From NCBI GenBank assembly GCA_021162685.1, contig JAGGYF010000042.1, positions 1-34,177 on the forward strand: a DNA stretch of 34,177 bases, given 5' to 3'. Below are positions 3,688 through 15,556 of the stretch, one piece after another; position 1 is the stretch's first letter; every line of letters starts with the position of its first letter. The stretch comes from Candidatus Iainarchaeum sp. GTDB taxonomy: Archaea; B1Sed10-29; WALL01. The notes beneath the pieces are model-generated. The model had not been told where the DNA came from. It searched no databases and worked only from the letters and a program-made list of their open reading frames with translations. Made by a program: the position numbers and the translations under genes.

Positions 3688-3891
3688 CTTACAGAAGTAT
3701 ACAATTAGAGGAATGCCTAAAAAGGTTACTACAAGAAACCATGAGATAAGGAATAGCACGTCTTCTGGGATAGGATAAAAACTTGCGGCAATGAGAAGGA
3801 TTGCGATGACAAATCCGACAAAAGGAAGGATACCTGCTACTAGGCTTGCCAATACATTCCAGTCTGGAATTAGTGGCTTCTGTTTTTTCAT
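3682..3891 (-). CDS. Small two-TM membrane protein, about 69 aa
   Basis: Likely start MKKQKPLIP at 3891; two hydrophobic helices. The upstream extension in the track overlaps the Nudix gene. Confidence 0.6.
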   Translation of the reverse strand: MKKQKPLIPDWNVLASLVAGILPFVGFVIAILLIAASFYPIPEDVLFLISWFLVVTFLGIPLIVYFCKL

Positions 3892-3944
3892 ATGTGCATT
3901 GTGTACTACAAAGTATTTAATAGTAAAGGGCATAATGAAGAGAT

Positions 3945-4367
3945 ATGGAAGAAAAGTCGTGCGGTACAGTGGTATACAACCCAAAAATACAAAAATTTCT
4001 GCTCCTACGCTATTCAAAGCATTGGGGCTTTCCAAAGGGGAATCAGGAACCAGGTGAGACAGAGGAGCAGACGGCATTGAGAGAGTTAGAGGAGGAAACA
4101 GGCATACATGCAGAGAGAGTGGAACCTAATTTTAGAAAGGAGATAGAATATTTTTATGTTAGAGCAGGTAAAAGAATTCATAAGACAGTTGTTTTCTTTT
4201 TGGTGAAAACAGAGAAAACAGATGTGAAGGTTTCATGGGAGCATAAGGGATATAAGTGGCTCAGCTATGATGATGCTATGAAACACCTAACATTCAATAC
4301 AGCGAAGGAGGTTCTGAAGGAAGCAAAGGCATTTCTGGACCAGAGGACATTAGTCTTCTATACCTAG
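3945..4367 (+). CDS. Nudix hydrolase, Ap4A-hydrolase-like
   Basis: HWGFPKG...ETEEQTALRELEEETG Nudix box; SWEH..YKW motif. Confidence 0.92.
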   Translation: MEEKSCGTVVYNPKIQKFLLLRYSKHWGFPKGNQEPGETEEQTALRELEEETGIHAERVEPNFRKEIEYFYVRAGKRIHKTVVFFLVKTEKTDVKVSWEHKGYKWLSYDDAMKHLTFNTAKEVLKEAKAFLDQRTLVFYT

Positions 4368-4586
4368 TAATTGTTTTACGCGCAAGACGTCGAATCCTAT
4401 TATGATGTTGCCGTCTATGTCAATCACTGGAACGCCCATCTGTCCCGATTTCTGGATCATTTCCATGGCTCTTGCTCTGTCTTTTGATACATCAACATCC
4501 TCAAATGGTATGTTGTGCTCCTTCAAAAACTGTTTTGCCCTTGTACACCAGGGGCAAGATGGCGTGGAATACACAATAACCTTCAT
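4350..4586 (-). CDS. Glutaredoxin-like protein (YruB/NrdH family)
   Basis: YSTPSCPWC active site, GQMGVPVI, IIGFD. Confidence 0.93.
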   Translation of the reverse strand: MKVIVYSTPSCPWCTRAKQFLKEHNIPFEDVDVSKDRARAMEMIQKSGQMGVPVIDIDGNIIIGFDVLRVKQLLGIED

Positions 4587-4630
4587 ATTAATCCCTTACC
4601 TCTTCTTCATATAAAAAGATGGTGGAGGAA

Positions 4631-6388
4631 TTAATCCTCCATGGTTGATAGGTCTCCTACTGGCAACCCTAGTTCTTTTGCTTTTAGCACCCTCCTCATT
4701 ATCTTCCCTGATCTTGTTTTTGGTAGTTTGTCTATGAACTCTATCTCCCTTGGCTTTGCATGTGCTGCTAGCTTTGTTTTAACGAATTCCATGATTTCCT
4801 TCTTTAGTTCTTCGGATGGCTGGTATCCTGGCCTTAGCACTATGAATGCTTTTATGATGTTTCCTCTGAGCGCGTCTGGCTTTCCTATTACTCCTGCTTC
4901 TGCAACTGCTGGGTGCTCCACAAGTTTGCTCTCTACTTCAAATGGTCCAACTCTTTCTCCAGATGTTTTTATTATGTCGTCAAGTCTTCCTTGGAACCAG
5001 AAGTAGCCCTCTTCATCTGTGTATGCAGAGTCACCAGAAACATACCATTCTGTTCCGTCACTGCCCTTAACAAAGTAACTCTTGTATTTCTCCTCGTTTT
5101 TCCAAATGGTTTTCATCATGCTTGGCCATCCCTTCTTTATTGCTAGGTTTCCTATTTGCAGTGGTGGAAGCCTATTTCCATTGTCATCAACAATTGCGCC
5201 TTCAAGACCAGGGAAGGGTTTTCCCATTGAACCTGGCTTTATTGGCATGCAGGGGTAGTTACAGACCAATTGCATACCTGTTTCTGTCATCCACCATGTG
5301 TCATGGATTGGTAGTTTCCAGACATCCATTGCCCATCTCACTACCTCTGGGTTAAGAGGTTCTCCAACTGAGTATATCAATCTAAGGGAGCTGATGTCAT
5401 ACTTCTCTGCAACACCTGCTCCTGCGGCCATGAACATCCTGAATGCTGTTGGTGCGCTGTACCATATTGTTACCTTGTAATCCTGTATTGTTTGGTACCA
5501 GCTTTCAACGCTAAACCTTCCTCCTCTTATTACTTCGGATGCACCGTTGAGCCAAGGACCGAATATACCATAGGATGTTCCTGTAACCCATCCTGGGTCA
5601 GCAGTACACCAATAGATGTCCTCATCATGCAAATCCAAGACGTATTTTGCAGTTGCATAGTGACCAATCATAGCCCTTTGTGCATGAAGAACACCCTTTG
5701 GCTTTCCTGTTGAACCAGATGTATAGTGTATAAGTAATGGGTCTTCTAGGTCAAGCCACACAATATCAAACTTGTCAGATGCCTCCTTCATCTCCTCATA
5801 GTAATTAATTTCGTTGTCATGTATCTCTGCACTGTCTCCTACCATGATTGTGTGCTTCAGTGCAGGCAAATCCTTGTATGCAATCCTGTCCCTCATGGAT
5901 GGAACTGTTATGATACCAACTGCATCACAGTCCTTCATCCTATCCTTCACTGCTTCTTCCATAAATGCTTCAAAAAGAGGAACAGGAATTACACCTGCTT
6001 TTAGCATTCCTAAAAGTGCAATATACATCTCAGGACTTCTTGGCATAAAGACGCCTACACGTTCTCCCTTTCCTATGCCATGCTTTTTCAAAACATTTGC
6101 GAACTTGTTGGATAAGTATTTCAGATCCTGGTAGGTATATTTCTCTTGCCTTTTGTCTGATACATAGTACAAAGCGACCTTGTTCTTTCTCCATGTCTCT
6201 GCGTGTCTATCAATCGCTTCATATGCCATGTTTACTTTCCCTGTTTTATACCATGTAAACTGCTTCTTTATCTCTTCCCAGTCCCAGTTCTTTCTCGCTT
6301 CATCATAGTTTTCAAGATTGGGTTTTAACCTCAGTTGTTCCAATGGTTTTTCTATTTTTTCAACTTCATGCATTGCTTTTTCTGCCAT
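4631..6388 (-). CDS. acsA: Acetate--CoA ligase (AMP-forming acetyl-CoA synthetase)
   Basis: YTSGSTGKPKG, WCTADPGWVTG, DTWWMTETG, LPKTRSGKIMRR. Start at 6388 follows the SD AGGTGA. Confidence 0.95.
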   Translation of the reverse strand: MAEKAMHEVEKIEKPLEQLRLKPNLENYDEARKNWDWEEIKKQFTWYKTGKVNMAYEAIDRHAETWRKNKVALYYVSDKRQEKYTYQDLKYLSNKFANVLKKHGIGKGERVGVFMPRSPEMYIALLGMLKAGVIPVPLFEAFMEEAVKDRMKDCDAVGIITVPSMRDRIAYKDLPALKHTIMVGDSAEIHDNEINYYEEMKEASDKFDIVWLDLEDPLLIHYTSGSTGKPKGVLHAQRAMIGHYATAKYVLDLHDEDIYWCTADPGWVTGTSYGIFGPWLNGASEVIRGGRFSVESWYQTIQDYKVTIWYSAPTAFRMFMAAGAGVAEKYDISSLRLIYSVGEPLNPEVVRWAMDVWKLPIHDTWWMTETGMQLVCNYPCMPIKPGSMGKPFPGLEGAIVDDNGNRLPPLQIGNLAIKKGWPSMMKTIWKNEEKYKSYFVKGSDGTEWYVSGDSAYTDEEGYFWFQGRLDDIIKTSGERVGPFEVESKLVEHPAVAEAGVIGKPDALRGNIIKAFIVLRPGYQPSEELKKEIMEFVKTKLAAHAKPREIEFIDKLPKTRSGKIMRRVLKAKELGLPVGDLSTMED

Positions 6389-6485
6389 AGAATCACCTAA
6401 ATTAATGGATTTTAGGAAAATGAGACATAGGATTATGGCATTTCTAGTATTTAAACGTTTATTGCCGAATTTTGATATTTGCCTA

Positions 6486-6533
6486 GTAACACTTTTGTAA
6501 CAAAATGTGATAATGTTGGAACACTTTTGTAAC
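6486..6533. promoter_or_regulatory. Pair of 16-bp boxes (GTAACACTTTTGTAAC 6486-6501; GGAACACTTTTGTAAC 6518-6533)
   Basis: Near-palindromic boxes 32 bp apart, immediately after the ATPase stop and upstream of the acsA promoter. The function is inferred. Confidence 0.6.
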
Positions 6534-6534
6534 A

Positions 6535-7701
6535 CTAGTACAAAAAGCCAAATGCGACCAATGGTAGTTCATTTTTTCCAGGAAGTTTGCTATCCACTAC
6601 CAAATAGTCCGGTTTTTGCCTCCTTGTTTTTCCTGGACCGCCAATCTCATAAGATTCTTTACCAATATAGAAATCTGTGTGAGAGCCGGGGTCATATGAT
6701 AAGCCCAAGTGGAAGGCATGTTGGACAAAGAACTCTTCTCTCTCTAACCCGCGATTGCGTGGTTTTTTCAACTTATCAAGGATTGCTGTTCTTATCGGAG
6801 GGGTAAGATAAATCTTTTTGTCCTTTTGTAGTGCTTTCACCTTCCCCCTTGCCCTGACCTCTTTTAATATTAGGCCATCATTTAATAGTTGCAGATATCT
6901 ATGAACTTGTGTTTTGTTTATTCCTATGCGTTGGGAAAGAGAAGAGAGGGAAAGTTGTTCAGACGATAAAGCTATGTTATACAGCAATTTTTCAATCTCA
7001 AGAACATTCTCCATATCCATTTTCCTGAATGCAATGAGGTCGTGTCTTAGGAATTTCGTTATCAACTCAAATATATCCGCATCGCTTTTCAACATGTACG
7101 GAAGCGCCTTTGCCATATACTCTGGGATTAATGGAGAATACTGGAGAAATTCCTTCCATCTCCCACTAAGTATCTGCTTTAGGCTTATGGGTGCTATATC
7201 TCTATTTTTTGAAAGGAGGAGGAACTCTCTAAAACTCATAGGCTCAAGTGTCATCCTCTTTATCCTTCTCGCAAGCTCTGTGGGATACAAAGCAAGTGCT
7301 GCTGACCCAGTAATCACTAAGGATAACTCTCCTTTATATGCTTCATAAAATGCTTTTATATCGTGAAATGCCATACACTCCTGAAATTCATCAAGAACAA
7401 TTACATCTACATCCTTTGTTGTGGCAATGTATTCCAGTGTATCATATACATTTTGAGATTTTAGTGGCGTGTAATCCATAGAAAGATACGCATACTTCAT
7501 ATCAGAAACAAGTTGGCTGACAAGAACAGTTTTTCCAGTGCCTCTCAGCCCAGATAGTACGGTTATCTGGTGGGGGTTTTGTATACTCTTTTTGAGAGTG
7601 TCATAGAGATATCTATGTTTTCTATAATTCTTACTATTGTTTTCTACAATCTTTGTTCCGAACAAAAGACATCTCTCTATGATGTCTGTATCAACGGCCA
7701 T
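6535..7701 (-). CDS. AAA_14/DUF4143-type ATPase with wHTH and PD-(D/E)xK-like C-terminus
   Basis: Walker A GLRGTGKT, Walker B VIVLDEFQ, ITGS, LEPMSFREF. HTH LSSLSQRIGINKTQVHRYLQLL; C-terminal TDFYIG..YEIGG. Confidence 0.88.
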   Translation of the reverse strand: MAVDTDIIERCLLFGTKIVENNSKNYRKHRYLYDTLKKSIQNPHQITVLSGLRGTGKTVLVSQLVSDMKYAYLSMDYTPLKSQNVYDTLEYIATTKDVDVIVLDEFQECMAFHDIKAFYEAYKGELSLVITGSAALALYPTELARRIKRMTLEPMSFREFLLLSKNRDIAPISLKQILSGRWKEFLQYSPLIPEYMAKALPYMLKSDADIFELITKFLRHDLIAFRKMDMENVLEIEKLLYNIALSSEQLSLSSLSQRIGINKTQVHRYLQLLNDGLILKEVRARGKVKALQKDKKIYLTPPIRTAILDKLKKPRNRGLEREEFFVQHAFHLGLSYDPGSHTDFYIGKESYEIGGPGKTRRQKPDYLVVDSKLPGKNELPLVAFGFLY

Positions 7702-7732
7702 GATATCTTATAATATGTGCTAGTATATAAAT

Positions 7733-7780
7733 GTTACACTTTTGTAACGAAAAACACGTTTTCTGTTACACTTTTGGAAC
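7733..7780. promoter_or_regulatory. Pair of 16-bp boxes (GTTACACTTTTGTAAC 7733-7748; GTTACACTTTTGGAAC 7765-7780)
   Basis: Same motif and same 32-bp spacing as 6486-6533. Located between the divergent TATA boxes of the ATPase and the Na/Pi symporter. Confidence 0.6.
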
Positions 7781-7831
7781 AAGGAGAAAAGGTATAAATA
7801 CTTGTTATACGTAAATGGTCAATGACTATTT

Positions 7832-8926
7832 ATGGATAGAAAGCTAATCCGCATAGTGCTATTACTTCTTGCTATATACCTCTTTCTTCTCTCAATAAAG
7901 CTCATGGGCTCTGGTTTTAAGGCATTGGGTACAGAATTCGCAAAAAGCGTGATCGCGACGACCTCAAATCCGATTGTTGGATTGTTTATAGGTATCCTGG
8001 TTACCACGGTTGTGCAGTCATCCTCATGCACCACATCATTAGTTGTTGCGCTTGTTGGAAGCGGAGCTATGACTATAGCAAATGCTATACCTATTATCAT
8101 GGGAGCGAATATGGGGACAACTGTCACAAATACAATTGTTTCCTTTGGGCACATCACACGGAGAACAGAGTTTCAAAAAGCATTTGGTGGTGCAGTTGTA
8201 CATGATATCTTCAACCTTCTTTCTGTTCTTGTGTTACTTCCATTAGAGATGGTTTTACATCCAATACAAACGATATCAACTATGCTCGCAGATGCGTTCT
8301 ATGGTATAGGTGGTTTTACATTTACAAGTCCACTGCATGTGATAATTGACCCAGCAAAACATTATGTTATTGCTATATTAGAATCTATTTTTGGGAATAA
8401 TCCTGTAGCCATTATTGTGTTTGCATTAGCACTTTTGTTTCTTTCCTTAAAGATTATTGTGGACTCCATGCGTTCTGTTGTACTCAGTGAAATTGAGACA
8501 CTTATTGATTCATTTCTCTTCAGGAATGGGTGGACAGGGTTTTTTACTGGTTTGTTCTTTACAGCAGTTGTCCAATCAAGTTCTGTTACAACATCCATTG
8601 TCATACCGCTAATAGGGGCAGGCCTACTTTCTATTGAGAAGGTATTTCCTTATGTTCTAGGCGCAAATGTTGGAACAACAATAACGGCAATTCTTGCAGC
8701 ATTAGCGATCTCAGGACCAACAGCAAAAGCAGCAATAACCACTGCATTTGCCCATCTTACCTTTAATCTGCTTGGTATTGCGTTATGGTATCCTCTACGA
8801 AGAGTACCAATCGCATTGGCAAAAAGGCTTTCTGGAATTATTCTTATATCAAGAAAATATGCAATTGCATATGTACTAACAGTATTCTATTTAATACCCA
8901 TTGCATTAGTATTTATACTAAGGTGA
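7832..8926 (+). CDS. Na+/phosphate cotransporter (NptA/SLC34 family)
   Basis: Two repeats of QSSS..TS and GAN(M/V)GTT; polytopic membrane protein. Confidence 0.93.
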   Translation: MDRKLIRIVLLLLAIYLFLLSIKLMGSGFKALGTEFAKSVIATTSNPIVGLFIGILVTTVVQSSSCTTSLVVALVGSGAMTIANAIPIIMGANMGTTVTNTIVSFGHITRRTEFQKAFGGAVVHDIFNLLSVLVLLPLEMVLHPIQTISTMLADAFYGIGGFTFTSPLHVIIDPAKHYVIAILESIFGNNPVAIIVFALALLFLSLKIIVDSMRSVVLSEIETLIDSFLFRNGWTGFFTGLFFTAVVQSSSVTTSIVIPLIGAGLLSIEKVFPYVLGANVGTTITAILAALAISGPTAKAAITTAFAHLTFNLLGIALWYPLRRVPIALAKRLSGIILISRKYAIAYVLTVFYLIPIALVFILR

Positions 8927-8931
8927 GAGAG

Positions 8932-9606
8932 ATGGTGTTTAAGGAGATATATGATGTTTGGACCAAAGAGGTTTTGTTGAGGAAGGCATTTGAGAAAACA
9001 TTGAAGATGATGGATAAGGATAAGGAAGCGTTTTCTCTGGCGTATAATGCTCTTATCAAAAACATAGATGAGCATATTGAAAAGGTTGTTAAGGATGAGG
9101 ATAGGGTAGATAAGTATATGCAGGATGTGCGAAGAGAGATACTAGAATACCTTGCTGTTAATTCTGCCCCGGATGTTGCCGCATCTCTCATACTCACTAC
9201 TGTGATTATATCATTGGAGAGGATAGGGGACTACTCAGAGGACATGACAAAACTAGCAGTGAGGTATCCAAAGAAGGTGAGTGAAAAGAAATACCTTGAA
9301 GCATTTGATTCAATATACGAGCGCATTATCAAGCTGTTTGATATGACGAAAAAGGCATTTGCCGATTCTGATGAAGAGGTCGCAAAAGAGGCCATCGCAT
9401 TATATATGAGCATAAAGAAGGACTGTAACACCCTTTATGATAAATTGGAAAAAGAGAAGAGGATGGAACCTAGAACAGCTATGATCTATGCTTTATTGAC
9501 AAGGTACTTGCAGAGGGTTGGAGCCCATTTGAATAACATAAATACCACAGTGGTAAATCCCTTCCCGCTTGCTGGGTCAAAGAAGGCGGTTAAAAGGGTT
9601 GAGTGA
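8932..9606 (+). CDS. phoU: PhoU-family phosphate uptake regulator
   Basis: EDRVD, LERIGDY and YLQRVGAH motifs. Start at 8932 follows the SD AGGTGA; in an operon with the Na/Pi symporter. Confidence 0.88.
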   Translation: MVFKEIYDVWTKEVLLRKAFEKTLKMMDKDKEAFSLAYNALIKNIDEHIEKVVKDEDRVDKYMQDVRREILEYLAVNSAPDVAASLILTTVIISLERIGDYSEDMTKLAVRYPKKVSEKKYLEAFDSIYERIIKLFDMTKKAFADSDEEVAKEAIALYMSIKKDCNTLYDKLEKEKRMEPRTAMIYALLTRYLQRVGAHLNNINTTVVNPFPLAGSKKAVKRVE

Positions 9607-9608
9607 AA

Positions 9609-10550
9609 CTAAACAACCTTAGCTCCATCAGCAAGTTTATAAGGAGTAGGAGATATCCTGTATTCTTCAAAAGCTAAAATAACGTCCTCTCTGTCTTTAG
9701 AGCGACATGCAACCACAATTTGACTACCCCCTCCCATGGTATAGTATGCATCAACGCCGCTTGTTCGGAGGTCTGTTACAATATCACATACTCGTTTTAC
9801 CTCTTCATTTCTTATGTCTATTCCTTGGCTCAAAAGAAGAGCATATGCTTCATCTATGTCTTCTTGTGCAACCCTAAATGCCCCCATAAAATCCTTTTTT
9901 ATTATCCTTCTCTCAATTTTATGGCATCTTTTATTGCAGTTGCTTACTCTCTCTTCAAACTGTGGTGAGGCAAGCATTGCTCTATGTATCTTTTCTGACT
10001 CAATCCTAGCCTTTTCAAATGAAAAACCAAACAAGGATACACCTACCAATTCTTTTGGATTTAAAAGTTGTTTCCCTCCTACTTCTGGATATTGCGAAAC
10101 ATCTATCTTGCTTATCCCGCCCAACAAACTTCGTGGGGATGAAGCAGACGCATTGATAATTATAGACACCTTCTCATTAATTGTCAGATTTAATTCAAAA
10201 AGATCGTCCAGTGCCTGTATAAGTGCAGCAGCCCCAGATGCAGAACTCCCACTTTTTATGTTATAGTTTCTAGATTGTATACGAACTCCAGAGTTACCAA
10301 CAATTTTCAATACAGTGTGCACTATACGCAACATTGGTTTTGCCTTTTCCCCACTTATCTCACTATCATTAACATAAAACTTGGTTCCGGTCTTTGAAAG
10401 TGTGGCCTCTGTTACTGTTTTCATATTCTCATCCAAGGTAGTAACTGCCATACCTATTGTATTGTGGTAAGGCGATCTATCGCCCCTTAACCCAGCCAAA
10501 AATATTAGGGGTACTGCAGGATATGCTTCAGAAACTGCTTTTGACTTCAT
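9609..10550 (-). CDS. Mevalonate-3-kinase-family paralog (GHMP/MDD fold), substrate uncertain
   Basis: AYPAVPLIFLAG, KSGSSASGAAA, SASSPRSLLGG, YTMGGGSQ. Visibly paralogous to 11377-12384. ATGA overlap with the upstream gene. Confidence 0.8.
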   Translation of the reverse strand: MKSKAVSEAYPAVPLIFLAGLRGDRSPYHNTIGMAVTTLDENMKTVTEATLSKTGTKFYVNDSEISGEKAKPMLRIVHTVLKIVGNSGVRIQSRNYNIKSGSSASGAAALIQALDDLFELNLTINEKVSIIINASASSPRSLLGGISKIDVSQYPEVGGKQLLNPKELVGVSLFGFSFEKARIESEKIHRAMLASPQFEERVSNCNKRCHKIERRIIKKDFMGAFRVAQEDIDEAYALLLSQGIDIRNEEVKRVCDIVTDLRTSGVDAYYTMGGGSQIVVACRSKDREDVILAFEEYRISPTPYKLADGAKVV

Positions 10551-11368
10551 TTTTCTCCCACCAGCTTGGCTACCCTATCCATTATAACATCAAGAGCCTG
10601 TTCAAGTGTTTGGTGGAAATCCTCATTTTTTATTATGGGTATATCCCACTCTTTTGCTTTTTCCAATAATCTATCCTGCATTATCCTGTATTTATCAAGT
10701 TGGTTTATAAGTCGTTGAGGGTCGCTCTTTATGTGCGCAAATTCGTTTCTGGATAGGATCCTCTCCTTGTGCTTTTCTATATCGTCTATGTGCAACACCA
10801 TTGGTATAATATTCCTTTTTTTCAATATGTCACTCTCAAAAGTATGAGGCAAGAAATGGAGATATTCAATAACCATATTTTCCCCATCGCGTACACACCT
10901 CTCCATGAGTTTACCCATACATTTGTTCATAATTCGCGATTGTTCCTCATATCCTTTTATGATTGAGTCTTTTGTGGGTTTATCGCTAAAATACTGCCAT
11001 GTATTATACACACTTGTAAATAGAACAGGATGTTCCTCCTTTTTAAGAATCCCACGCAGAAATTCACGAAGAGCATCTCCTCCCATCATCACCCTTATTC
11101 CTAAACTTTTCGCGATTTCTGATGCAAGTGTTGTTTTGCCAGTTCCTGGTAACCCAGCAACAACTATTACCAACGGCTCTTTCAGTTCCCCTGAAATTGT
11201 TTTTTCTAGATATTTTCTCCATATCTTATATCTCCTAACATACTGCGGCCCAAACCTCCCTAACTCCTTCACTATTTTTTCGTGGGGTTCGCCAATAAGA
11301 TGTTTTATCCTTTCAATTGGCAGTCCAGATGCCCTTACTGCCTCTTTTGTTATATCTATGCCTGGCAT
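10547..11368 (-). CDS. 2-phosphoglycerate-kinase-family P-loop kinase; probable mevalonate-3-phosphate 5-kinase
   Basis: GLPGTGKT, DALREFLR, VIEYLH, YRIMQDRL. The family includes Thermoplasma M3P5K, and the gene sits between two M3K-like genes. Confidence 0.78.
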   Translation of the reverse strand: MPGIDITKEAVRASGLPIERIKHLIGEPHEKIVKELGRFGPQYVRRYKIWRKYLEKTISGELKEPLVIVVAGLPGTGKTTLASEIAKSLGIRVMMGGDALREFLRGILKKEEHPVLFTSVYNTWQYFSDKPTKDSIIKGYEEQSRIMNKCMGKLMERCVRDGENMVIEYLHFLPHTFESDILKKRNIIPMVLHIDDIEKHKERILSRNEFAHIKSDPQRLINQLDKYRIMQDRLLEKAKEWDIPIIKNEDFHQTLEQALDVIMDRVAKLVGEK

Positions 11369-11376
11369 ATGGTCAC

Positions 11377-12384
11377 CTATATCCTCCTGACAACGCGGGG
11401 TGAGGGCGCTACTTTACATTCCCTAAAGGAATAGTTGTTTCTCTCTAGGAAATTTCTTATGTGGTCGGCGTGGTCTTTGTGTACTAATATAGATATTTGA
11501 TTTCCACCCCCTGCTGTTGGTACTGCTATTACTCCTCTCTCCTTAGCAATCTTCTTCACATCTTCCCATAGCTCCCGCATTGGGCCTTTTCTTACAACTA
11601 ACCCTCTATCCTCCAATAACTCATGTGCATTTTCAACATCTTCAAGGATTAGGTCAAACATGCGTTTTATGTTCCCTTCTTTGAATGCCTTTTTGATTTC
11701 TAACACCCTCCTTGGTGTTTCCCTCATCCTTATCTTATAATCGGGATGTTTTACTATTTCTTGATGGATCTCATCCGCAGTTATCCTTGTCTTGAACAGA
11801 GGAGATTCATTTTTATATTTTGGTTCTCCTTCCGGTGCATTGAATGGAACAAGAAAAATACGTATGTCCTTTAAATCTTCATGTGATGCAACAGGTATGC
11901 CCCTCACTTCAGGATAGTTATCCACATTTGTTTCACTCAACCCACCTAATAAACTTCTTTGAACAGACTCGGAACCCATCTTCCCATACTTTATCTTTTC
12001 TTCCTTGCTCATGTTTAACCCAAATAGCTCATCAATAGCAGTAACAAGAGCAGCAACACCAGAGTCAGATGAACCGCTTTTTATGTTATGGTTTACAGAT
12101 TCAATTCTAACACCAGACCTTATGCCTTTTTCTGAGAGTATCCTCTTAACCATATTTTTTATATCTTCGCCACGTTTTCCACTGATTTCTTTCCCATTTA
12201 CAAACAGATGAATGCCCTCTTCTTCAGGTAATTGCTTGGCCTTTGTAACTGTCTTCATATCCTCTTCGAGGGTAGTGATTGCCAACCCCATGGAATTGAG
12301 CCTTGGTGCCCTATCCTCTCGTATTCCCCCCAAAAACACAACAGGTATAGTTGGGAACGCTTCTACCTCAACTTCGTTGTACAT
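11377..12384 (-). CDS. Mevalonate 3-kinase (Thermoplasma Ta1305-like)
   Basis: AFPTIPVVFLGG, SGSSDSG, SESVQRSLLGG and R.....IH match the recalled Ta1305 motifs (AYPTIGVVLLGG, SGSSDAG, SESAGRSLFGG). It lacks the decarboxylase Lys and Asp. Confidence 0.85.
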   Translation of the reverse strand: MYNEVEVEAFPTIPVVFLGGIREDRAPRLNSMGLAITTLEEDMKTVTKAKQLPEEEGIHLFVNGKEISGKRGEDIKNMVKRILSEKGIRSGVRIESVNHNIKSGSSDSGVAALVTAIDELFGLNMSKEEKIKYGKMGSESVQRSLLGGLSETNVDNYPEVRGIPVASHEDLKDIRIFLVPFNAPEGEPKYKNESPLFKTRITADEIHQEIVKHPDYKIRMRETPRRVLEIKKAFKEGNIKRMFDLILEDVENAHELLEDRGLVVRKGPMRELWEDVKKIAKERGVIAVPTAGGGNQISILVHKDHADHIRNFLERNNYSFRECKVAPSPRVVRRI

Positions 12385-12512
12385 AACTAATCCCCCTATC
12401 GTTAACCATAACCTTTATAAATGATTTTAAATAAAAACTTTACACCTATTTTTGCAGATAAATAGGTCTGGAGGTGAAGTCATGGAAACAGAAGCTACAG
12501 GAGGGGAGGGCG

Positions 12513-12851
12513 ATGGCAATCGGCGTCCACATACTTGCAGAGTTCTACGAGTGCAATCCAGACCTACTGGCTACGGTGGATCCTGTTAGAGAGATTCTTG
12601 AGAGCACTGTAGAAGAGGCAAAGCTGAGTAAACTCCATTCGCACTATCATCAGTTTGAGCCATACGGAGTTACAGGTTTTGTTTTACTCGCAGAATCTCA
12701 TATCAGTATACACACCTGGCCAGAGCACGGGTATTGCGCAGTAGATGTTTTCACATGCGGAGAAGAAGGAGACGCCGAACTTGCCTATAAGCTCCTTAAA
12801 GAGAAACTTAAACCAGGGAGAGTTAATAGAGAGAAAAAGGTAAGAGGATGA
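12513..12851 (+). CDS. speD: S-adenosylmethionine decarboxylase proenzyme (pyruvoyl-dependent, prokaryotic type)
   Basis: GVHILAEFYEC, LAE^SHISIHTWPE, VDVFTCG. GGAGG lies 8 nt upstream of ATG 12513. Confidence 0.93.
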   Translation: MAIGVHILAEFYECNPDLLATVDPVREILESTVEEAKLSKLHSHYHQFEPYGVTGFVLLAESHISIHTWPEHGYCAVDVFTCGEEGDAELAYKLLKEKLKPGRVNREKKVRG

Positions 12852-13210
12852 GAACAGTAGGCCTTATAGAGCCAGTAGTTGTAGTAGGCAAGAAAAGGAT
12901 AAAGGTACTTGGTAAGTTTGACACTGGAGCATTCAGAACAAGTATTGATGAAAAAGTCGCAAAGAAGGCAGGGTTCAGAGCGGTTGGAAAAGTGAAAACG
13001 AAAAGCGCATTATCCAAAGGAAGGAGAAGAAAATTAGTAAAAGCAAAGATACAGATAGGTAACAAAATATTTGATGTTGAGGCAAGTGTAAGCAAGAGAG
13101 AGCATTCTATTGCAAAAGTGCTTATTGGTAGGGACATACTCTTCAAGAACTTTGTTGTTGATGTTTCAAAAAGACATTCAAGTCCAAAAGAAAGGGACTT
13201 TAAGATTTAG
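12848..13210 (+). CDS. RimK-associated retropepsin-like protease (RimB / RimK-LysX-associated family)
   Basis: VGLIEPV, KFDTGAFRTSID, VLIGRDIL..FVVD. ATGA overlap with speD. Confidence 0.85.
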   Translation: MRTVGLIEPVVVVGKKRIKVLGKFDTGAFRTSIDEKVAKKAGFRAVGKVKTKSALSKGRRRKLVKAKIQIGNKIFDVEASVSKREHSIAKVLIGRDILFKNFVVDVSKRHSSPKERDFKI

Positions 13211-14078
13211 CGCGCTCATAGATAAATTTCATTACAGTGTCATAAAGGTCTAATTTTGCAACCGTGCTTATGCCCTTAAGGCTCGGTCCATCGTTGATCT
13301 CAATCAGCACTGGTCCTCTCTCACTTGGTATAATATCTACGCCACATACTTCCATACCTATGGTGCTTGCTGCCTTTATCGCAATTTCTTCTTCTTCTGG
13401 TGTTGGTTTTAATGGTTCTGGTTTCCCACCTATTGTTATATTCGTTCTGAATTCCCCTTCTTTTACTGCCTTTCTCTTCATAGCAGCTGCAACTTGTTCC
13501 CCAACGACGAATAGTCTGTGGTCTTCACCAGGGTTTTTTATAAATTCTTCAACAGTAACAATTTGTTTTAATCTTGACATTGCATCTATGATGGGAGCAA
13601 AATCGCTTTGTGATGAAACCAACATGACACCCTTTCCTCCCATACCTCCTAAAAGTTTCACTACTACTGGAAATTCAAAATCTTTAACTACATCTTCAAC
13701 AACCTTCGGAGAGGTAACTAAAACAGCTTTTGGTGTTGGTAGTCCTGCTTCTGACATTACCTTTAATGTGTAAAATTTGTTTTTGGCTATGGTTATTGCG
13801 TCTGCCTGCACAGGGGAGTAAACCCCAGAATCAGCGAGCATGTCCATAATGATTGGAGCATAATCTATATCAGGAGAGGATGAACGAGGGTATGCTGCAT
13901 CAAACTCACATAGGTTGTAGTTTTTGTAGACTACTCTATTGTTTCCTTTATCTACTACTGCTCTTATCTCTGGGAATGGGGCTTGTACGCATTCTTTAAA
14001 GTATTTTTTTCCAGCATCTATTATCTTCTGGTTCACTTCCTTGTATGTTCTTGAACCTGAAAGTAGAACAAATCTCAT
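13200..14078 (-). CDS. RimK-family ATP-grasp amino-acid (glutamate) ligase
   Basis: AKNKFYT, PVVVKLLGGMGGKGV, EEFI...EDHRLFVVG, FRTNITIGG, GVDI, IEINDGP. Start at 14078 forms an ATGA overlap with the upstream gene. Confidence 0.92.
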   Translation of the reverse strand: MRFVLLSGSRTYKEVNQKIIDAGKKYFKECVQAPFPEIRAVVDKGNNRVVYKNYNLCEFDAAYPRSSSPDIDYAPIIMDMLADSGVYSPVQADAITIAKNKFYTLKVMSEAGLPTPKAVLVTSPKVVEDVVKDFEFPVVVKLLGGMGGKGVMLVSSQSDFAPIIDAMSRLKQIVTVEEFIKNPGEDHRLFVVGEQVAAAMKRKAVKEGEFRTNITIGGKPEPLKPTPEEEEIAIKAASTIGMEVCGVDIIPSERGPVLIEINDGPSLKGISTVAKLDLYDTVMKFIYERAKS

Positions 14079-15556
14079 GGCTTCCACAACCTTTCTATTC
14101 TTTCTGTTTCTGCTGCTCGGTATTCATCTAAAAACTCTCTTAGGTATTCTGGGAATACATCCTTCACGCGCTTTGATTCTCTGAATATCTGTTTCAATTT
14201 TCTTTCTAGTCCCTTGCTAATCTTTTTGTAGTGGATGGGGTCTGAGTAGTATAATTTATTCTTAATACGCCAGTAGGCTTTTGTTCCACGTGGTGCGTAT
14301 ACTACATAACCTCTCTCTTCTCCTTCAAATGGGCCCATTGCTCTTTCCATGTCCTTGTAGTTTACCAGATAAACACCGCCCGTTTCTTTATTTGGGTCTA
14401 TGATAAGCAATTCGTCACCCTCCACACCCACGCACAATACAGCATGTTTTTGGTCCCTCTTTACTCCTGGGAAGAGTGCAGCTTTGTAAAAGTTCAGTAC
14501 AACAAGTCCACCCTCAGAGAGCCATGCCCTAACCTCATCTCTGAGATTTATAATCTCTTTGTATGGAACAAAAATACCTGCGACATTGCCCTTTGTTAAC
14601 TTATCTACTGCCTTTATTGCATTGGATACTGTTGTTCCACCAGGAACTTTTGTTTTTGCCTCTTTTGCAATTGTCTTTTGTCCGCCTTCTATGTGGAATC
14701 CGAACAGGTCTAAGATCATGTTAAGAACTGCCGGAACGCAATACGATTTTTCTTGGGCAACATAATGCCTGCGCATTGATTCCATTGTTTTGATGTCAAA
14801 TCTTGACTTTTTTATTCGCACTTCTTTTTCTACGATCTTTGCATTTGGTATGGAGATGTAATATCCTCTGCCCGTGTCTATGATTACAGACGTTGATGAT
14901 ATGTCTATAACCTCCCCATCTGCATCATCAACAAAGATACGCTGCCCAAGCTTTACAAGTTTTGAGCTTTTTATGTAGAAACCAGCAAGCCAGTTCCTCG
15001 TAATGTCCTTTGATGCAAAGAAGATAAGGGCAACCACAAGGAATGCAAACCCATAACTTATTGCTGACAAAGAACTTTCAACAACACTCTTTGGTATTCC
15101 GAGTTGAGCAAGTGATATCTGTATTACAATGATGTATAAAAAGAGACGAAGGCCCATGAGTACGAAGTTTACAACTGGCTCATCTATGCCCATACCTTTG
15201 AGGTAAATCTGGAATTTCATTCCCCTGAATGTTACTGTTAAGATTTCCATGATGAGATTAACAATCATTGTTCCGAGGATTAGTATAAGCAACGTTGATA
15301 GGAGTATGGGAGCATAATTGCTCAAACTCGCAAGTAGTCTTTCTGTTATACCTGGGTCTAAAAAGAAAACCGCGATGAAAATTGTTGCTACGAATAGTAG
15401 GTATTCAATGGTTTTGACGAGTATCTTTGCCATGCCTGGCTTTTTTGTTATGGGCGAGCAAGCAATGGAAAATAATCGGACAATTGTAACTCCAACTAAT
15501 AGGATTAAGACTACTTCAAATGCCTTCAGTATTGCTGGAGGAACATACTCTATCAT
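14075..15556 (-). CDS. MscS-like membrane protein fused to a C-terminal C39-like cysteine peptidase
   Basis: About 5 TM helices, then KDITRNWLAG..GQRIFV..GEVIDI..IPNAKI (MscS TM3 and beta domain). This is followed by Q268-EKSY-C273, GGTT, H371-AVL and D387-P. Confidence 0.85.
   Translation of the reverse strand: MIEYVPPAILKAFEVVLILLVGVTIVRLFSIACSPITKKPGMAKILVKTIEYLLFVATIFIAVFFLDPGITERLLASLSNYAPILLSTLLILILGTMIVNLIMEILTVTFRGMKFQIYLKGMGIDEPVVNFVLMGLRLFLYIIVIQISLAQLGIPKSVVESSLSAISYGFAFLVVALIFFASKDITRNWLAGFYIKSSKLVKLGQRIFVDDADGEVIDISSTSVIIDTGRGYYISIPNAKIVEKEVRIKKSRFDIKTMESMRRHYVAQEKSYCVPAVLNMILDLFGFHIEGGQKTIAKEAKTKVPGGTTVSNAIKAVDKLTKGNVAGIFVPYKEIINLRDEVRAWLSEGGLVVLNFYKAALFPGVKRDQKHAVLCVGVEGDELLIIDPNKETGGVYLVNYKDMERAMGPFEGEERGYVVYAPRGTKAYWRIKNKLYYSDPIHYKKISKGLERKLKQIFRESKRVKDVFPEYLREFLDEYRAAETERIERLWKP

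What the first reader, a model, noticed from the sequence alone, without database searches (positions are those of the whole stretch)
9609..12384. Mevalonate operon with two M3K-family paralogs; the second has Ala at the substrate-gating Glu (possible new pathway variant)
Seen: an operon of M3K-like (335 aa), 2PGK-family kinase and M3K-like (313 aa). Paralog 1 has SGSSD107 and SE139SVQRS. Paralog 2 has SGSSA104 and SA136SSPRS, resembling the SSAS and SGSACRS motifs of decarboxylases that bind 5-phosphorylated mevalonate. Both keep the Arg and Ser equivalent to Ta1305 R185 and S105, and both lack the decarboxylase Lys (KYWG) and Asp (DAGPN is replaced by GGGNQ/GGGSQ). Established (recalled; alignment by eye): the Thermoplasma route uses M3K, M3P5K and a 3,5-bisphosphate decarboxylase, and small-residue substitutions at Ta1305 E140 convert M3K into a 5-phosphomevalonate 3-kinase. 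Inference: paralog 2 is either a natural 5-phosphomevalonate 3-kinase (salvaging host or environmental MVA-5P into the 3,5-bisphosphate pool) or an independently evolved bisphosphate decarboxylase that completes the operon.
Basis: partly seen in the sequence, partly recalled or inferred. Interest (0 to 1): 0.85.

Follow-up and report, generated by a model that had tools for sequence, protein, structure and literature searches.

The report
Mevalonate kinase operon with retooled paralog
A small vent archaeon that already has the standard archaeal mevalonate pathway also carries a three-gene operon in which the usual decarboxylase is replaced by a second, altered copy of mevalonate-3-kinase whose substrate pocket looks built for phosphorylated mevalonate.

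Summary
Three coupled minus-strand genes encode an M3K-like protein (par1, 335 aa), a 2PGK/M3P5K-family kinase (273 aa) and a second M3K-like protein (par2, 313 aa). HMMER and MAFFT place par2 A136 on Ta1305 E140 and A104 on D109.

New context:
- The genome (1.11 Mb, 98.4% complete) has an intact archaeal-type route: MVK, UbiX, AcnX dehydratase, UbiD, IPK, IDI2 and HMGR. It has no other DMD-family gene.
- In 72 related loci there is never a second M3K-like gene, and every readable copy keeps the Asp and Glu.
- In 31 of 32 loci with M3K→kinase order and a readable third slot, that slot holds a DMD-family decarboxylase. Every full-length genome-locus copy aligned keeps Lys and Asp. Here the slot holds par2.
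- Par2 is probably an in-lineage duplicate of par1 (45% identity in the N half, 25% in the C half). It keeps the P-loop, the Ser/Asn and the phosphotransfer Arg, but lacks the decarboxylase Lys and Asp.

Best reading (about 0.38): an ATP-dependent 3-kinase for 5-phosphomevalonate. Main rival (about 0.22): a decarboxylase with a new mechanism. No enzyme can be assigned to the step from mevalonate 3,5-bisphosphate to isopentenyl phosphate. This is a new variant of a known kind and only assays can settle it.

The parts
11377..12384 (-). par1: M3K-like protein, 335 aa. It keeps every M3K-invariant residue (D107, E139, R143, R200, H254) and has a unique insertion of about 15 aa before R200.
10547..11368 (-). 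2PGK-family P-loop kinase, 273 aa; putative mevalonate-3-phosphate 5-kinase. It is the only member of this family in the genome.
   Evidence: phmmer gives 101-245 bits to full-length kinases next to M3K-like genes in the named loci; two split ORF pieces score 52 and 93.
9609..10550 (-). par2: divergent M3K-like paralog, 313 aa, occupying the operon slot that holds a decarboxylase in related operons.
10239..10241 (-). par2 codon A104 (GCA). It aligns with Ta1305 D109, which is Asp in every other M3K-like protein examined.
10143..10145 (-). par2 codon A136 (GCT). It aligns with Ta1305 E140, the substrate-gating Glu, which is Glu in every other M3K-like protein examined.
9843..9845 (-). par2 codon Y236. 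This column is His in 32 of 32 M3K-like and 87 of 92 DMD-like representatives, and is not His in 11 of 11 MBD-type third genes.
9732..9734 (-). par2 codon G273, at the column of the decarboxylase catalytic Asp (DAGPN). The Asp is absent.
10005..10007 (-). par2 codon R182, equivalent to Ta1305 R185 on the phosphotransfer loop. It is retained.
12414..12421 (.). Palindromic TTTATAAA in the 89-bp divergent intergenic region, 29 nt upstream of the par1 ATG. It may be an archaeal TATA element (inference only). GGGGG lies 8-12 nt before the ATG.

Best explanation
The trio is a horizontally acquired Thermoplasma-type kinase cassette added to a genome that already runs the archaeal-type mevalonate pathway.

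Par1 is an ordinary mevalonate 3-kinase, and the middle gene is the mevalonate-3-phosphate 5-kinase. Par2 is probably a duplicate of par1 made in this lineage. Its two M3K-specific acidic residues, the equivalents of Ta1305 D109 and E140, have changed to the small residues found in decarboxylases that bind a 5-phosphorylated tail. Its C-terminal domain has been heavily remodelled.

Because par2 keeps the ATP and phosphotransfer residues but lacks the decarboxylase Lys and Asp, I read it as an ATP-dependent 3-kinase. Its likely substrate is 5-phosphomevalonate made by the cell's own MVK, and its product would be mevalonate 3,5-bisphosphate. That would make it a natural counterpart of the engineered Ta1305 E140 mutants.

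Shown here: the anatomy, the residue states, the uniqueness of par2, the pathway inventory and the operon comparison. Inferred: the substrate and the reaction. Unassigned: the enzyme that turns mevalonate 3,5-bisphosphate into isopentenyl phosphate.
For: 1. Pocket. A104 and A136 replace an Asp and a Glu that are otherwise invariant in M3K-like proteins: 32/32 representatives, 41/41 named loci and 30/30 readable metagenome loci. The replacements are the DMD/PMD-type states (A 72, S 19 and G 77, A 7, each of 92). A review passage (PMC9961378) states that E140 mutants with smaller residues at this substrate-interacting Glu were used to prepare mevalonate 3,5-bisphosphate, citing Motoyama 2019.

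2. Kinase residues kept. These are S93, N95, the G101-S102-S103 P-loop, R140, R182 and R201. By contrast, the 11 MBD-type third genes aligned have replaced the first Ser of the SS pair in 11/11, keep the Asn in only 3/11, and none has Arg at the R182 column (Lys in 4/11).

3. Decarboxylase residues absent. F17 stands in place of Lys and G273 in place of Asp. PMC9254496 passages report that D309T and D309N abolish MBD activity, and that D281T/V turns S. solfataricus DMD into a kinase only.

4. Substrate available. MVK scores 268 bits against a cut-off of 163, and HMGR is present.

5. Fold intact. The AlphaFold model has pLDDT 94.8, and the top Foldseek hits are Ta M3K 4rkz/4rkp with TM 0.90.

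6. The gene looks live. The ORF is intact, it overlaps the kinase gene by ATGA and has an SD-like GGTGGGAG. One strain variant shows 4 synonymous and 2 conservative changes in the last 37 codons. That sample is very small.
Against: 1. No exit step. An exhaustive HMM search of all 11,643 frames of 40 aa or more found only par1 and par2 in the DMD superfamily. Passages in PMC5177888 say mevalonate 3,5-bisphosphate is stable and needs an enzyme to be decarboxylated. A pure kinase would therefore feed a dead end in a streamlined 1.1-Mb genome.

2. Par2 sits in the decarboxylase slot. In 31 of 32 loci with M3K→kinase order and an observable third position, that position holds a DMD-family decarboxylase.

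3. Par2 lost His236. This residue is kept in nearly all ATP-using members and is absent from 11/11 MBD-type proteins, although 5 of 92 DMD-like representatives with KYWG-type motifs also lack it.

4. The role of D109 is unknown to me. Its perfect inverse relation with the catalytic Asp could mean that it supports kinase chemistry in M3K. If so, par2 might be a poor kinase.

5. No ortholog of par2 exists to test whether the Ala/Ala state is conserved.

6. The primary E140 paper and the Ta1305 structure paper were not held. What I say about them beyond the review passage is recalled.
Confidence: 0.38

Rival explanations
1. Par2 is the operon's decarboxylase. On this view an M3K duplicate gained a 5-phosphate pocket and now eliminates the 3-phosphate and CO2 from mevalonate 3,5-bisphosphate by a mechanism that needs neither the canonical Asp nor the Lys. 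The route would then be complete: par1, then the kinase, then par2, then IPK.
For: - Slot equivalence. In 31 of 32 observable M3K→kinase→X loci, X is a DMD-family decarboxylase. Five of five genomes that carry only the kinase-M3K pair at the locus have a decarboxylase-type hit elsewhere.
- G000 has no other DMD-family gene.
- This is the only reading that gives the cassette a useful product.
- The pocket changes are also what MVA-3,5-BP binding would need.
- His236 is lost, as in 11/11 MBD-type proteins.
- Par2 is the most decarboxylase-like of the M3K-likes scored on the DMD HMM: 173 bits against 127 for par1 and 116-160 for full-length M3K-like ORFs of the named loci. The difference lies mostly in residues 176-300. 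The ESM feature search leans the same way, weakly.
Against: - Par2 lacks both the Lys (F17) and the Asp (G273), while all 21 full-length third-slot decarboxylases aligned keep both. The literature passages treat the Asp as essential.
- It keeps ATP-type residues that MBD-type enzymes have lost.
- It scores 15 bits on the MBD model against a cut-off of 560.
- As recalled, not read, the Ta1305 E140 mutants only phosphorylate.
Confidence: 0.22
2. Par2 is catalytically impaired and serves as a ligand-binding or regulatory partner of par1 or of the kinase. An example would be one subunit of a heterodimer that senses a phosphorylated intermediate.
For: - Par2 has lost three residues invariant in the M3K-like family (D, E, H).
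- Its terminal branch is long: 1.41 against 0.82 for par1 and a median of 0.72.
- Its C-terminal half is only 25% identical to par1, against 45% for the N half.
- It is translationally coupled to the kinase gene.
Against: - The substitutions are not random. Two of the three land on the decarboxylase-type states.
- The P-loop, the three Arg residues and Ser/Asn are kept.
- The model is confident.
- No binding test was run.
Confidence: 0.15
3. The cassette, or par2 alone, acts on a substrate other than mevalonate. Candidates include another 3-hydroxy acid or a phosphorylated one, so the link to isoprenoid synthesis would be only historical.
For: - The main pathway is complete without the cassette.
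- The non-Thermoplasmatales M3K-like proteins scanned here all score far below the curated M3K cut-off of 440 bits: 122-149 bits (par1, par2, P0004, P0005, P0007, L050). I know of no characterised member of this group (recall).
- The abstract of PMC4357925 (listing) notes activity of the MVD family on 3-hydroxyisovalerate.
Against: - Par1 keeps every residue that is invariant in M3K-like proteins, including those aligned with the Ta1305 residues S105, E140, R144 and R185.
- In other lineages the same cassette is fused into operons with DMD/MBD-type decarboxylases and MVK. That ties the family to mevalonate.
Confidence: 0.15

Closest known systems
Thermoplasma acidophilum mevalonate 3-kinase Ta1305 (PDB 4rkp, 4rks, 4rkz)
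   Same: Same fold (TM 0.90) and same two Pfam domains. Neither protein has the decarboxylase Lys or Asp. S105, R144 and R185 equivalents are present in both paralogs.
   Different: Only 23-24% identity. Both paralogs belong to a separate clade shared with sequences from MAGs labelled Aenigmatarchaeota and Heimdallarchaeota. Par2 has Ala at the D109 and E140 positions and Tyr at the conserved His.
Engineered Ta1305 E140 small-residue mutants (5-phosphomevalonate 3-kinase; Motoyama et al. 2019, seen only as cited in PMC9961378, otherwise recalled)
   Same: A small residue replaces the substrate-gating Glu on an M3K scaffold that has no catalytic Asp.
   Different: Par2 is natural, has also lost the neighbouring Asp and a conserved His, and is 64% different from its nearest paralog. 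Its activity is untested.
Mevalonate 3,5-bisphosphate decarboxylase (Ta0893, PtoMBD; NCBIfam NF040847)
   Same: Same superfamily and the same position in the operon, downstream of the M3P5K gene. Both have small residues at the two tail-pocket columns and both have lost the conserved His.
   Different: MBD keeps the Lys and the catalytic Asp and has lost ATP-binding residues. Par2 is the reverse. Par2 scores 15 bits on the model against a cut-off of 560.
M3K - M3P5K - decarboxylase operons in MAGs labelled Micrarchaeota, Aenigmatarchaeota and Iainarchaeota, and the kinase-M3K pairs in Heimdallarchaeota-labelled MAGs (homologs reported in PMC11052028)
   Same: Same first two genes in the same order. 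Par1 is 42-45% identical to the M3K-like genes of four loci, three of them labelled Aenigmatarchaeota.
   Different: The third gene here is an M3K paralog, not a decarboxylase. None of the 72 loci has a second M3K-like gene. The host genome uses the AcnX/UbiD archaeal-type route.
S. solfataricus DMD D281T/V, a kinase-only mutant (passages in PMC9254496)
   Same: A decarboxylase-type phosphate-tail pocket without the catalytic Asp, which predicts 3-phosphorylation without decarboxylation.
   Different: That protein keeps the KYWG Lys and acts on the diphosphate. The G000 genome shows no PMK: only one MVK-like GHMP hit was found.

Membership tests
Mevalonate 3-kinase (NCBIfam NF040848, Ta1305 type) | Two-domain fold: MVD-like_N plus M3K_C | tested here: met
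   Pfam scores 68.6/63.3 bits (par1) and 56.8/55.8 bits (par2). Foldseek TM 0.90 to 4rkz/4rkp for par2.
Mevalonate 3-kinase (NCBIfam NF040848, Ta1305 type) | Score above the curated equivalog cut-off (440 bits) | tested here: not met
   143.4 bits (par1) and 149.3 bits (par2). A Thermoplasmatales-type representative reaches 537.5. Other non-Thermoplasmatales M3K-likes also fall short (122-142 bits).
Mevalonate 3-kinase (NCBIfam NF040848, Ta1305 type) | Family-invariant Asp (Ta1305 D109) and Glu (E140) | tested here: not met
   Par1 meets it (D107, E139). Par2 does not (A104, A136)..
Mevalonate 3-kinase (NCBIfam NF040848, Ta1305 type) | No decarboxylase Lys or Asp; Arg on the phosphotransfer loop (R185) | tested here: met
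   FLGG/FLAG and GGG motifs; R200 (par1) and R182 (par2)..
Mevalonate 3-kinase (NCBIfam NF040848, Ta1305 type) | ATP-dependent 3-phosphorylation of free (R)-mevalonate | not testable with these tools
   Needs an enzyme assay.
Mevalonate 3,5-bisphosphate decarboxylase (NF040847) | Catalytic Asp (PtoMBD D309) and the Lys of the Asp/Lys/Arg triad | tested here: not met
   Par2 has G273 and F17; only the Arg (R140) is kept.. Literature passages.
Mevalonate 3,5-bisphosphate decarboxylase (NF040847) | Loss of ATP-binding residues (ATP-independent enzyme) | tested here: not met
   Par2 keeps S93, N95 and the SS pair of the P-loop. The 11 MBD-type genes aligned have replaced the first Ser in 11/11 and keep the Asn in 3/11.
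Mevalonate 3,5-bisphosphate decarboxylase (NF040847) | Gene lies directly downstream of M3K and M3P5K in the operon | tested here: met
   Par2 occupies this slot. In 31 of 32 observable loci the slot holds a DMD-family decarboxylase.
Mevalonate-3-phosphate 5-kinase (NF008996, Ta0762 type) | Score above the curated cut-off (250 bits) | tested here: not met
   162.3 bits, tied with 2-phosphoglycerate kinase at 160.8. The Micrarchaeum A_DKE operon kinase scores 237.1 and the L018 kinase 131.2.
Mevalonate-3-phosphate 5-kinase (NF008996, Ta0762 type) | Adjacent to an M3K gene in a conserved operon | tested here: met
   A homologous kinase lies in the same locus as the M3K-like gene in 36 of 41 genome loci and 24 of 31 metagenome loci, directly beside it in most. 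Several of the remaining loci are cut by contig ends.
5-phosphomevalonate 3-kinase (engineered activity; no natural family described in what I searched) | M3K scaffold with a small residue at the E140 position | tested here: met
   A136 aligns with E140.
5-phosphomevalonate 3-kinase (engineered activity; no natural family described in what I searched) | Phosphorylates MVA-5P at O3 without decarboxylation | not testable with these tools
   Needs an assay.

The most novel reading that the evidence does not exclude
Par2 is a mevalonate 3,5-bisphosphate decarboxylase that arose from a kinase-only M3K scaffold and works without the Asp/Lys pair thought indispensable in this superfamily. That would be a second, independent invention of the split kinase/decarboxylase solution, running as an Fe-S-independent bypass beside the AcnX/UbiD route.
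Probability: 0.2. Interest if true: 0.85.

Novelty: new variant of a known kind. Interest (0 to 1): 0.6.

Why it matters
The mevalonate decarboxylase superfamily is a textbook case of kinase and decarboxylase functions being split and re-joined. Its specificity switches have so far been demonstrated by mutagenesis.

Par2 is a natural protein carrying the engineered switch (a small residue at E140). It also has a second reverted acidic residue, sits in the decarboxylase slot, and lives in a genome with no decarboxylase but a full alternative pathway.

Either outcome is informative. One is a natural 5-phosphomevalonate 3-kinase, an activity I found described only for engineered enzymes. That would imply an unknown enzyme that consumes mevalonate 3,5-bisphosphate. 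The other is a decarboxylase with a new catalytic solution.

It also shows that Thermoplasma-type genes can coexist with the archaeal-type route in a probably thermophilic vent archaeon. That bears on the argument that this route is an adaptation to acid.

Tried and rejected
**Chimera idea.** Par2 scores higher than par1 on decarboxylase HMMs, mainly over residues 176-300. I tested whether its C-terminal half came from a displaced decarboxylase. Separate domain trees keep both halves inside the M3K-like clade: in the N half par1 and par2 are sisters (SH-aLRT 95), and in the C half par2 is basal within the clade (support 99). I rejected the chimera idea.

**G62D as a relocated catalytic Asp.** This Gly is invariant in 27 of 27 representatives. 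Among the 41 named loci, however, the column is Asp in 2 and Lys in 7. It also lies in an NG-type turn after a strand in the model. I dropped it.

**His236 as a clean marker of ATP independence.** This is weakened by 5 of 92 DMD-like representatives that lack the His yet keep KYWG-type motifs.

**Placement of par2.** The bootstrap tree puts it inside the six-member clade (100/98). The AU test rejects neither par1+par2 as sisters (p 0.53) nor par2 outside all other M3K-likes (p 0.175). The in-lineage duplication is therefore likely, not proven.

**Orthologs of par2.** None was found in any of these searches:
- the word-indexed protein search (3 hits, none close);
- the genome-contig scan;
- the full HMMER search of 1.84 billion representatives, where the best hit other than par2 itself is 36% identical;
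- the metagenome-contig scan.

**Expression.** No RNA holder was listed, so nothing can be said. The contigs laid are short and of low depth. Parts of the stretch without cover mean nothing.

**Synteny.** One family relative (G003) has the speH homolog next to a homolog of window ORF 1552-3687. This hints that the roughly 8.8 kb between them in G000, which includes the trio, is an insertion or a rearrangement. That locus is only 3.4 kb long, and this is a single comparison.

**16S.** No 16S gene was found with a primer-type motif. I did not determine the phylum name.

Complex prediction was not used because I do not claim binding. No coordinates of the model were available, so I could measure no distances and do no docking.

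**Papers.**
- Passages read by 'find': PMC11052028, PMC9254496, PMC5177888, PMC9961378.
- Section 19 and passages read: PMC4357925.
- Not held, so recalled only: Vinokur 2015 and Motoyama 2019.
- Supplements are closed. Tables S1 to S5 of PMC11052028 may list which DPANN MAGs carry these genes.

Full report
**1. What is in the sequence.**
- Three minus-strand ORFs fill window 9609-12384: par1 (12384..11377, 335 aa), a kinase (11368..10547, 273 aa) and par2 (10550..9609, 313 aa).
- Par1 and the kinase are 8 nt apart. The kinase and par2 overlap by ATGA. Each start is preceded by a purine-rich SD-like stretch.
- Upstream of par1 is an 89-bp divergent intergenic region with a palindromic TTTATAAA at 12414-12421.
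- Downstream, the stop of a convergent PhoU-like gene lies 2 bp from the par2 stop.
- Both paralogs carry Pfam MVD-like_N and M3K_C, and their best NCBIfam model is mevalonate-3-kinase. They score 143 and 149 bits, well below the equivalog cut-off of 440.
- The kinase is a P-loop protein that ties between mevalonate-3-phosphate 5-kinase (162 bits, cut-off 250) and 2-phosphoglycerate kinase (161 bits). It is the only member of that family in the genome.

**2. The residue claims hold.**
- The best PDB sequence match for both paralogs is Ta1305 (E 1.6e-19 for par1, 2e-24 for par2).
- With the 19-residue offset of the PDB chain, par2 A136 falls on E140, A104 on D109, S100 on S105, R140 on R144 and R182 on R185. 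Par1 has D107, E139, R143 and R200 at these places.
- Both read F-L-(G/A)-G where decarboxylases read K-Y-W-G, and G-G-G where decarboxylases read D-A-G.
- An AlphaFold model of par2, built on a 29-row alignment, has mean pLDDT 94.8. Its best structural matches are the Ta M3K entries 4rkz and 4rkp (TM 0.90), followed by DMD and PMD structures.

**3. Par2 is unique.**
- A full HMMER search of 1.84 billion cluster representatives gave 184 hits at E ≤ 1e-3 and 43 at E ≤ 1e-10.
- I aligned the 123 listed hits of 250-420 aa with par1 and par2, out of the 150 listed. In that alignment the M3K-like group (32 rows including par1) has Asp at the D109 column and Glu at the E140 column in 32 of 32.
- The 92 DMD-like rows have A 72, S 19, G 1 at the first column and G 77, A 7, S 3, T 2, V 2 at the second.
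- The same holds in 41 of 41 M3K-like genes from named genome loci (one reads GASD instead of GSSD) and in 30 of 30 readable metagenome loci.
- Par2 therefore carries the decarboxylase-type state at both M3K-specific acidic positions.
- It has also changed a His (Y236). That column is His in 32/32 M3K-like and 87/92 DMD-like representatives and in all 41 locus genes.
- Two nearly invariant positions changed conservatively: D to E186 and M to V251.
- Par1 keeps all of these residues. One representative, P0006, is par1 with a different C-terminal end.

**4. Origin of par2.**
- In a careful ML tree the M3K-like proteins separate from DMD-like proteins with 100/100 support. Par1 and par2 fall with four representatives (P0004, P0005, P0007, P0008) in a clade with 100/98 support. 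The order within that clade is unresolved. Par2 has a terminal branch of 1.41, against 0.82 for par1 and a median of 0.72.
- In the named loci, par1's closest relatives (42-45% identity) are four loci, three of them from MAGs labelled Aenigmatarchaeota.
- Divergence between the paralogs is lopsided: 78/175 identical (45%) in the N half and 34/138 (25%) in the C half.
- A tree of the N half joins par1 and par2 (SH-aLRT 95). A tree of the C half leaves par2 on a long branch at the base of the M3K-like clade, which itself has 99 support against decarboxylases. Par2 is therefore not a kinase/decarboxylase chimera.
- The AU test rejects neither a par1+par2 sister pair (p 0.53) nor par2 outside all other M3K-likes (p 0.175).

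**5. Genome context changes the picture.**
- The window is contig 16 of a 1.11-Mb assembly with 45 contigs, estimated 98.4% complete.
- Contig 15 carries MVK (268 bits, cut-off 163), UbiX, a HAD protein, the AcnX large and small subunits (534 and 123 bits), an IPK with a C-terminal HAD domain, and IDI2. UbiD is on contig 24 and HMG-CoA reductase on contig 14. None has an internal stop. That is the complete archaeal-type route from mevalonate to IPP.
- The DMD superfamily is represented only by par1 and par2. This holds with NCBIfam models. It also holds in an unfiltered HMM and phmmer search of all 11,643 stop-to-stop frames of 40 aa or more, where the next hit is MVK itself at 29 bits.
- AcnX is found in 17 of the 31 species genomes of the phylum, including 4 of 5 family relatives.
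- M3K-like genes were found only in this genome. The two other hits in relatives are canonical DMDs sitting next to MVK-type genes.
- So the archaeal-type route is the inherited one and the trio is an addition.
- All genomes of the phylum are 0.3-1.3 Mb. The stretch occurs in hydrothermal-vent metagenomes of two studies. tRNA GC is 62% in a 39.5% GC genome, which suggests a thermophile (inference).

**6. The operon comparison.** A scan of species-representative genomes with a four-sequence alignment returned 41 loci from MAGs labelled Aenigmatarchaeota, Heimdallarchaeota, Micrarchaeota, Iainarchaeota, Marsarchaeota and Bathyarchaeia, plus one Methanothrix bin. A metagenome scan returned 31 more.
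- None of the 72 loci has two M3K-like genes.
- Among genome loci, 21 have the order M3K, kinase, DMD-family gene, and 3 more have a DMD-family gene in another order. Ten are kinase-M3K pairs, one has room after the kinase but no such gene, two are cut by the contig end, and four show M3K alone.
- Among metagenome loci the figures are 10, 0, 9, 0, 5 and 7.
- So where the order is M3K then kinase and the third place can be seen, it is a DMD-family gene in 31 of 32 loci.
- All 21 full-length third genes aligned keep the Lys (KYWG or EK[YF][LM]G) and the Asp (D[TA]G).
- They fall into two types:
  - A DMD/PMD type of 326-349 aa, for example L018 (289 bits on the DMD model), which is followed by an MVK gene.
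  - An MBD type of 368-407 aa, for example Candidatus Micrarchaeum A_DKE (386 bits on the MBD model).
- In five genomes with only the kinase-M3K pair at the locus, a decarboxylase-type hit (192-208 bits on the PMD model) lies elsewhere in 5 of 5.
- The window's genome is thus the only one seen in which the cassette has no DMD-family decarboxylase, and par2 stands exactly where that gene normally is.

**7. Weighing function.** Residue-level evidence points to a kinase.
- Par2 keeps S93, N95, the SS pair of the P-loop and the loop Arg (R182).
- Alanine replacement of the Ta1305 counterpart of R182 nearly inactivates the enzyme, according to a passage in PMC9254496.
- The MBD-type genes have replaced the first Ser in 11/11, keep the Asn in 3/11, and have Lys rather than Arg at the loop position in only 4/11.
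- Par2 lacks two of the three residues of the Asp/Lys/Arg triad. PMC5177888 calls this triad necessary for decarboxylation. PMC9254496 reports that mutating the Asp abolishes MBD activity and turns a DMD into a pure kinase.
- With a decarboxylase-type tail pocket on an Asp-less scaffold, the expected activity is 3-phosphorylation of a 5-phosphorylated mevalonate. The genome makes MVA-5P (MVK) but shows no PMK: the mevalonate-kinase model found only one GHMP hit.

Pathway-level evidence points the other way.
- The product, mevalonate 3,5-bisphosphate, is reported to be stable and to need an enzyme, and none is recognisable here.
- A streamlined genome is unlikely to keep a cassette that ends in a dead end.
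- Par2 occupies the decarboxylase slot.
- It has lost the His that all 11 MBD-type genes have also lost, although 5 of 92 apparently ATP-dependent relatives lack it too.
- It is the most decarboxylase-like of the M3K-likes scored on the DMD HMM: 173 bits against 127 for par1 and 116-160 for full-length M3K-like ORFs of the named loci. The ESM feature search leans the same way, weakly.

My odds are: kinase on MVA-5P about 0.38, decarboxylase with a new mechanism about 0.22, impaired or regulatory partner about 0.15, other substrate about 0.15, and the remainder unknown. A decarboxylase hidden in the unassembled 1-2% of the genome would make the kinase reading fully coherent. It would then be a natural version of the MVK, MVA-5P 3-kinase, MBD route.

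**8. Comparison with what is known.**
- Homologs of Thermoplasma-type enzymes in DPANN and Heimdallarchaeia, mixed with other pathway types, are already reported (PMC11052028, passages). The words paralog, operon and 'two copies' do not occur in its main text.
- Full-text searches for 'mevalonate 3-kinase', '5-phosphomevalonate 3-kinase', 'phosphomevalonate 3-kinase' and 'mevalonate 5-phosphate 3-kinase' found only papers on the engineered enzyme or reviews. The library lacks most subscription papers.
- New here: the paralog with the Ala/Ala/Tyr state, its position in the operon, the absence of any decarboxylase, and coexistence with the AcnX/UbiD route.
- I file this as a new variant of a known kind, with interest 0.6.

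Noticed in passing
G000 contig 15, about 44420-51241 (loci L004, L005, L007, L016): The archaeal-type mevalonate cluster runs MVK, UbiX, HAD hydrolase, AcnX large, AcnX small, then a 535-aa ORF that joins an isopentenyl phosphate kinase domain to a C-terminal HAD phosphatase-type domain, a 172-aa ORF with no Pfam hit, and IDI2. An IPK-HAD fusion plus a separate HAD inside this cluster is unusual and might bear on the turnover of phosphorylated intermediates.
   Followed up: partly
window 1552-12851 compared with L060 (G003): In one family relative the SAM-decarboxylase homolog lies next to a homolog of window ORF 1552-3687. In this genome about 8.8 kb lies between them: an AMP-binding enzyme, an AAA_14/DUF4143 ATPase, a Na/Pi cotransporter, PhoU and the trio. 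This may be an inserted or rearranged segment.
   Followed up: partly
L018-L021 (three labelled Aenigmatarchaeota, one 'uncultured archaeon'), e.g. L018 4080-7828: A four-gene operon: M3K-like, M3P5K-like, a DMD-type decarboxylase (289 bits on TIGR01240) and a mevalonate kinase (210 bits). The 3-kinase and the 5-kinase of mevalonate are encoded side by side. In L019 and L020 the M3P5K-like gene is split into two ORFs.
   Followed up: partly
window 11785-11850 (par1 residues about 185-199): Par1, and its near-identical representative P0006, has an insertion of about 15 residues just before the phosphotransfer-loop Arg (R200). The insertion is absent from par2 and from the four other members of the clade aligned.
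   Followed up: no
MBD-type third genes in L032, L034, L035, L037, L039-L041, L047, L050, L051, L055: All 11 MBD-type proteins lack the His that is otherwise nearly universal in the superfamily, and all 11 have replaced the first Ser of the P-loop SS pair (with E, L or T). This could serve as a sequence signature for ATP-independent members.
   Followed up: partly
window 12848-14087: A RimK-like ATP-grasp gene (minus strand) overlaps, end to end, a small retropepsin/Zn_protease-like gene (plus strand) that follows the SAM decarboxylase gene. This is a RimK-associated protease pairing.
   Followed up: no
L052 (Micrarchaeota-labelled MAG), after 9600: This is the only M3K→kinase locus with room downstream but no recognisable DMD-family gene. 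It could hold a very divergent decarboxylase or a different solution.
   Followed up: no
window 9612-9719 (par2 C-terminus), run X2: A strain variant in one vent run differs at 6 positions within par2: 4 synonymous changes plus I299L and T302I. It also differs at one position in the PhoU-like gene.
   Followed up: yes
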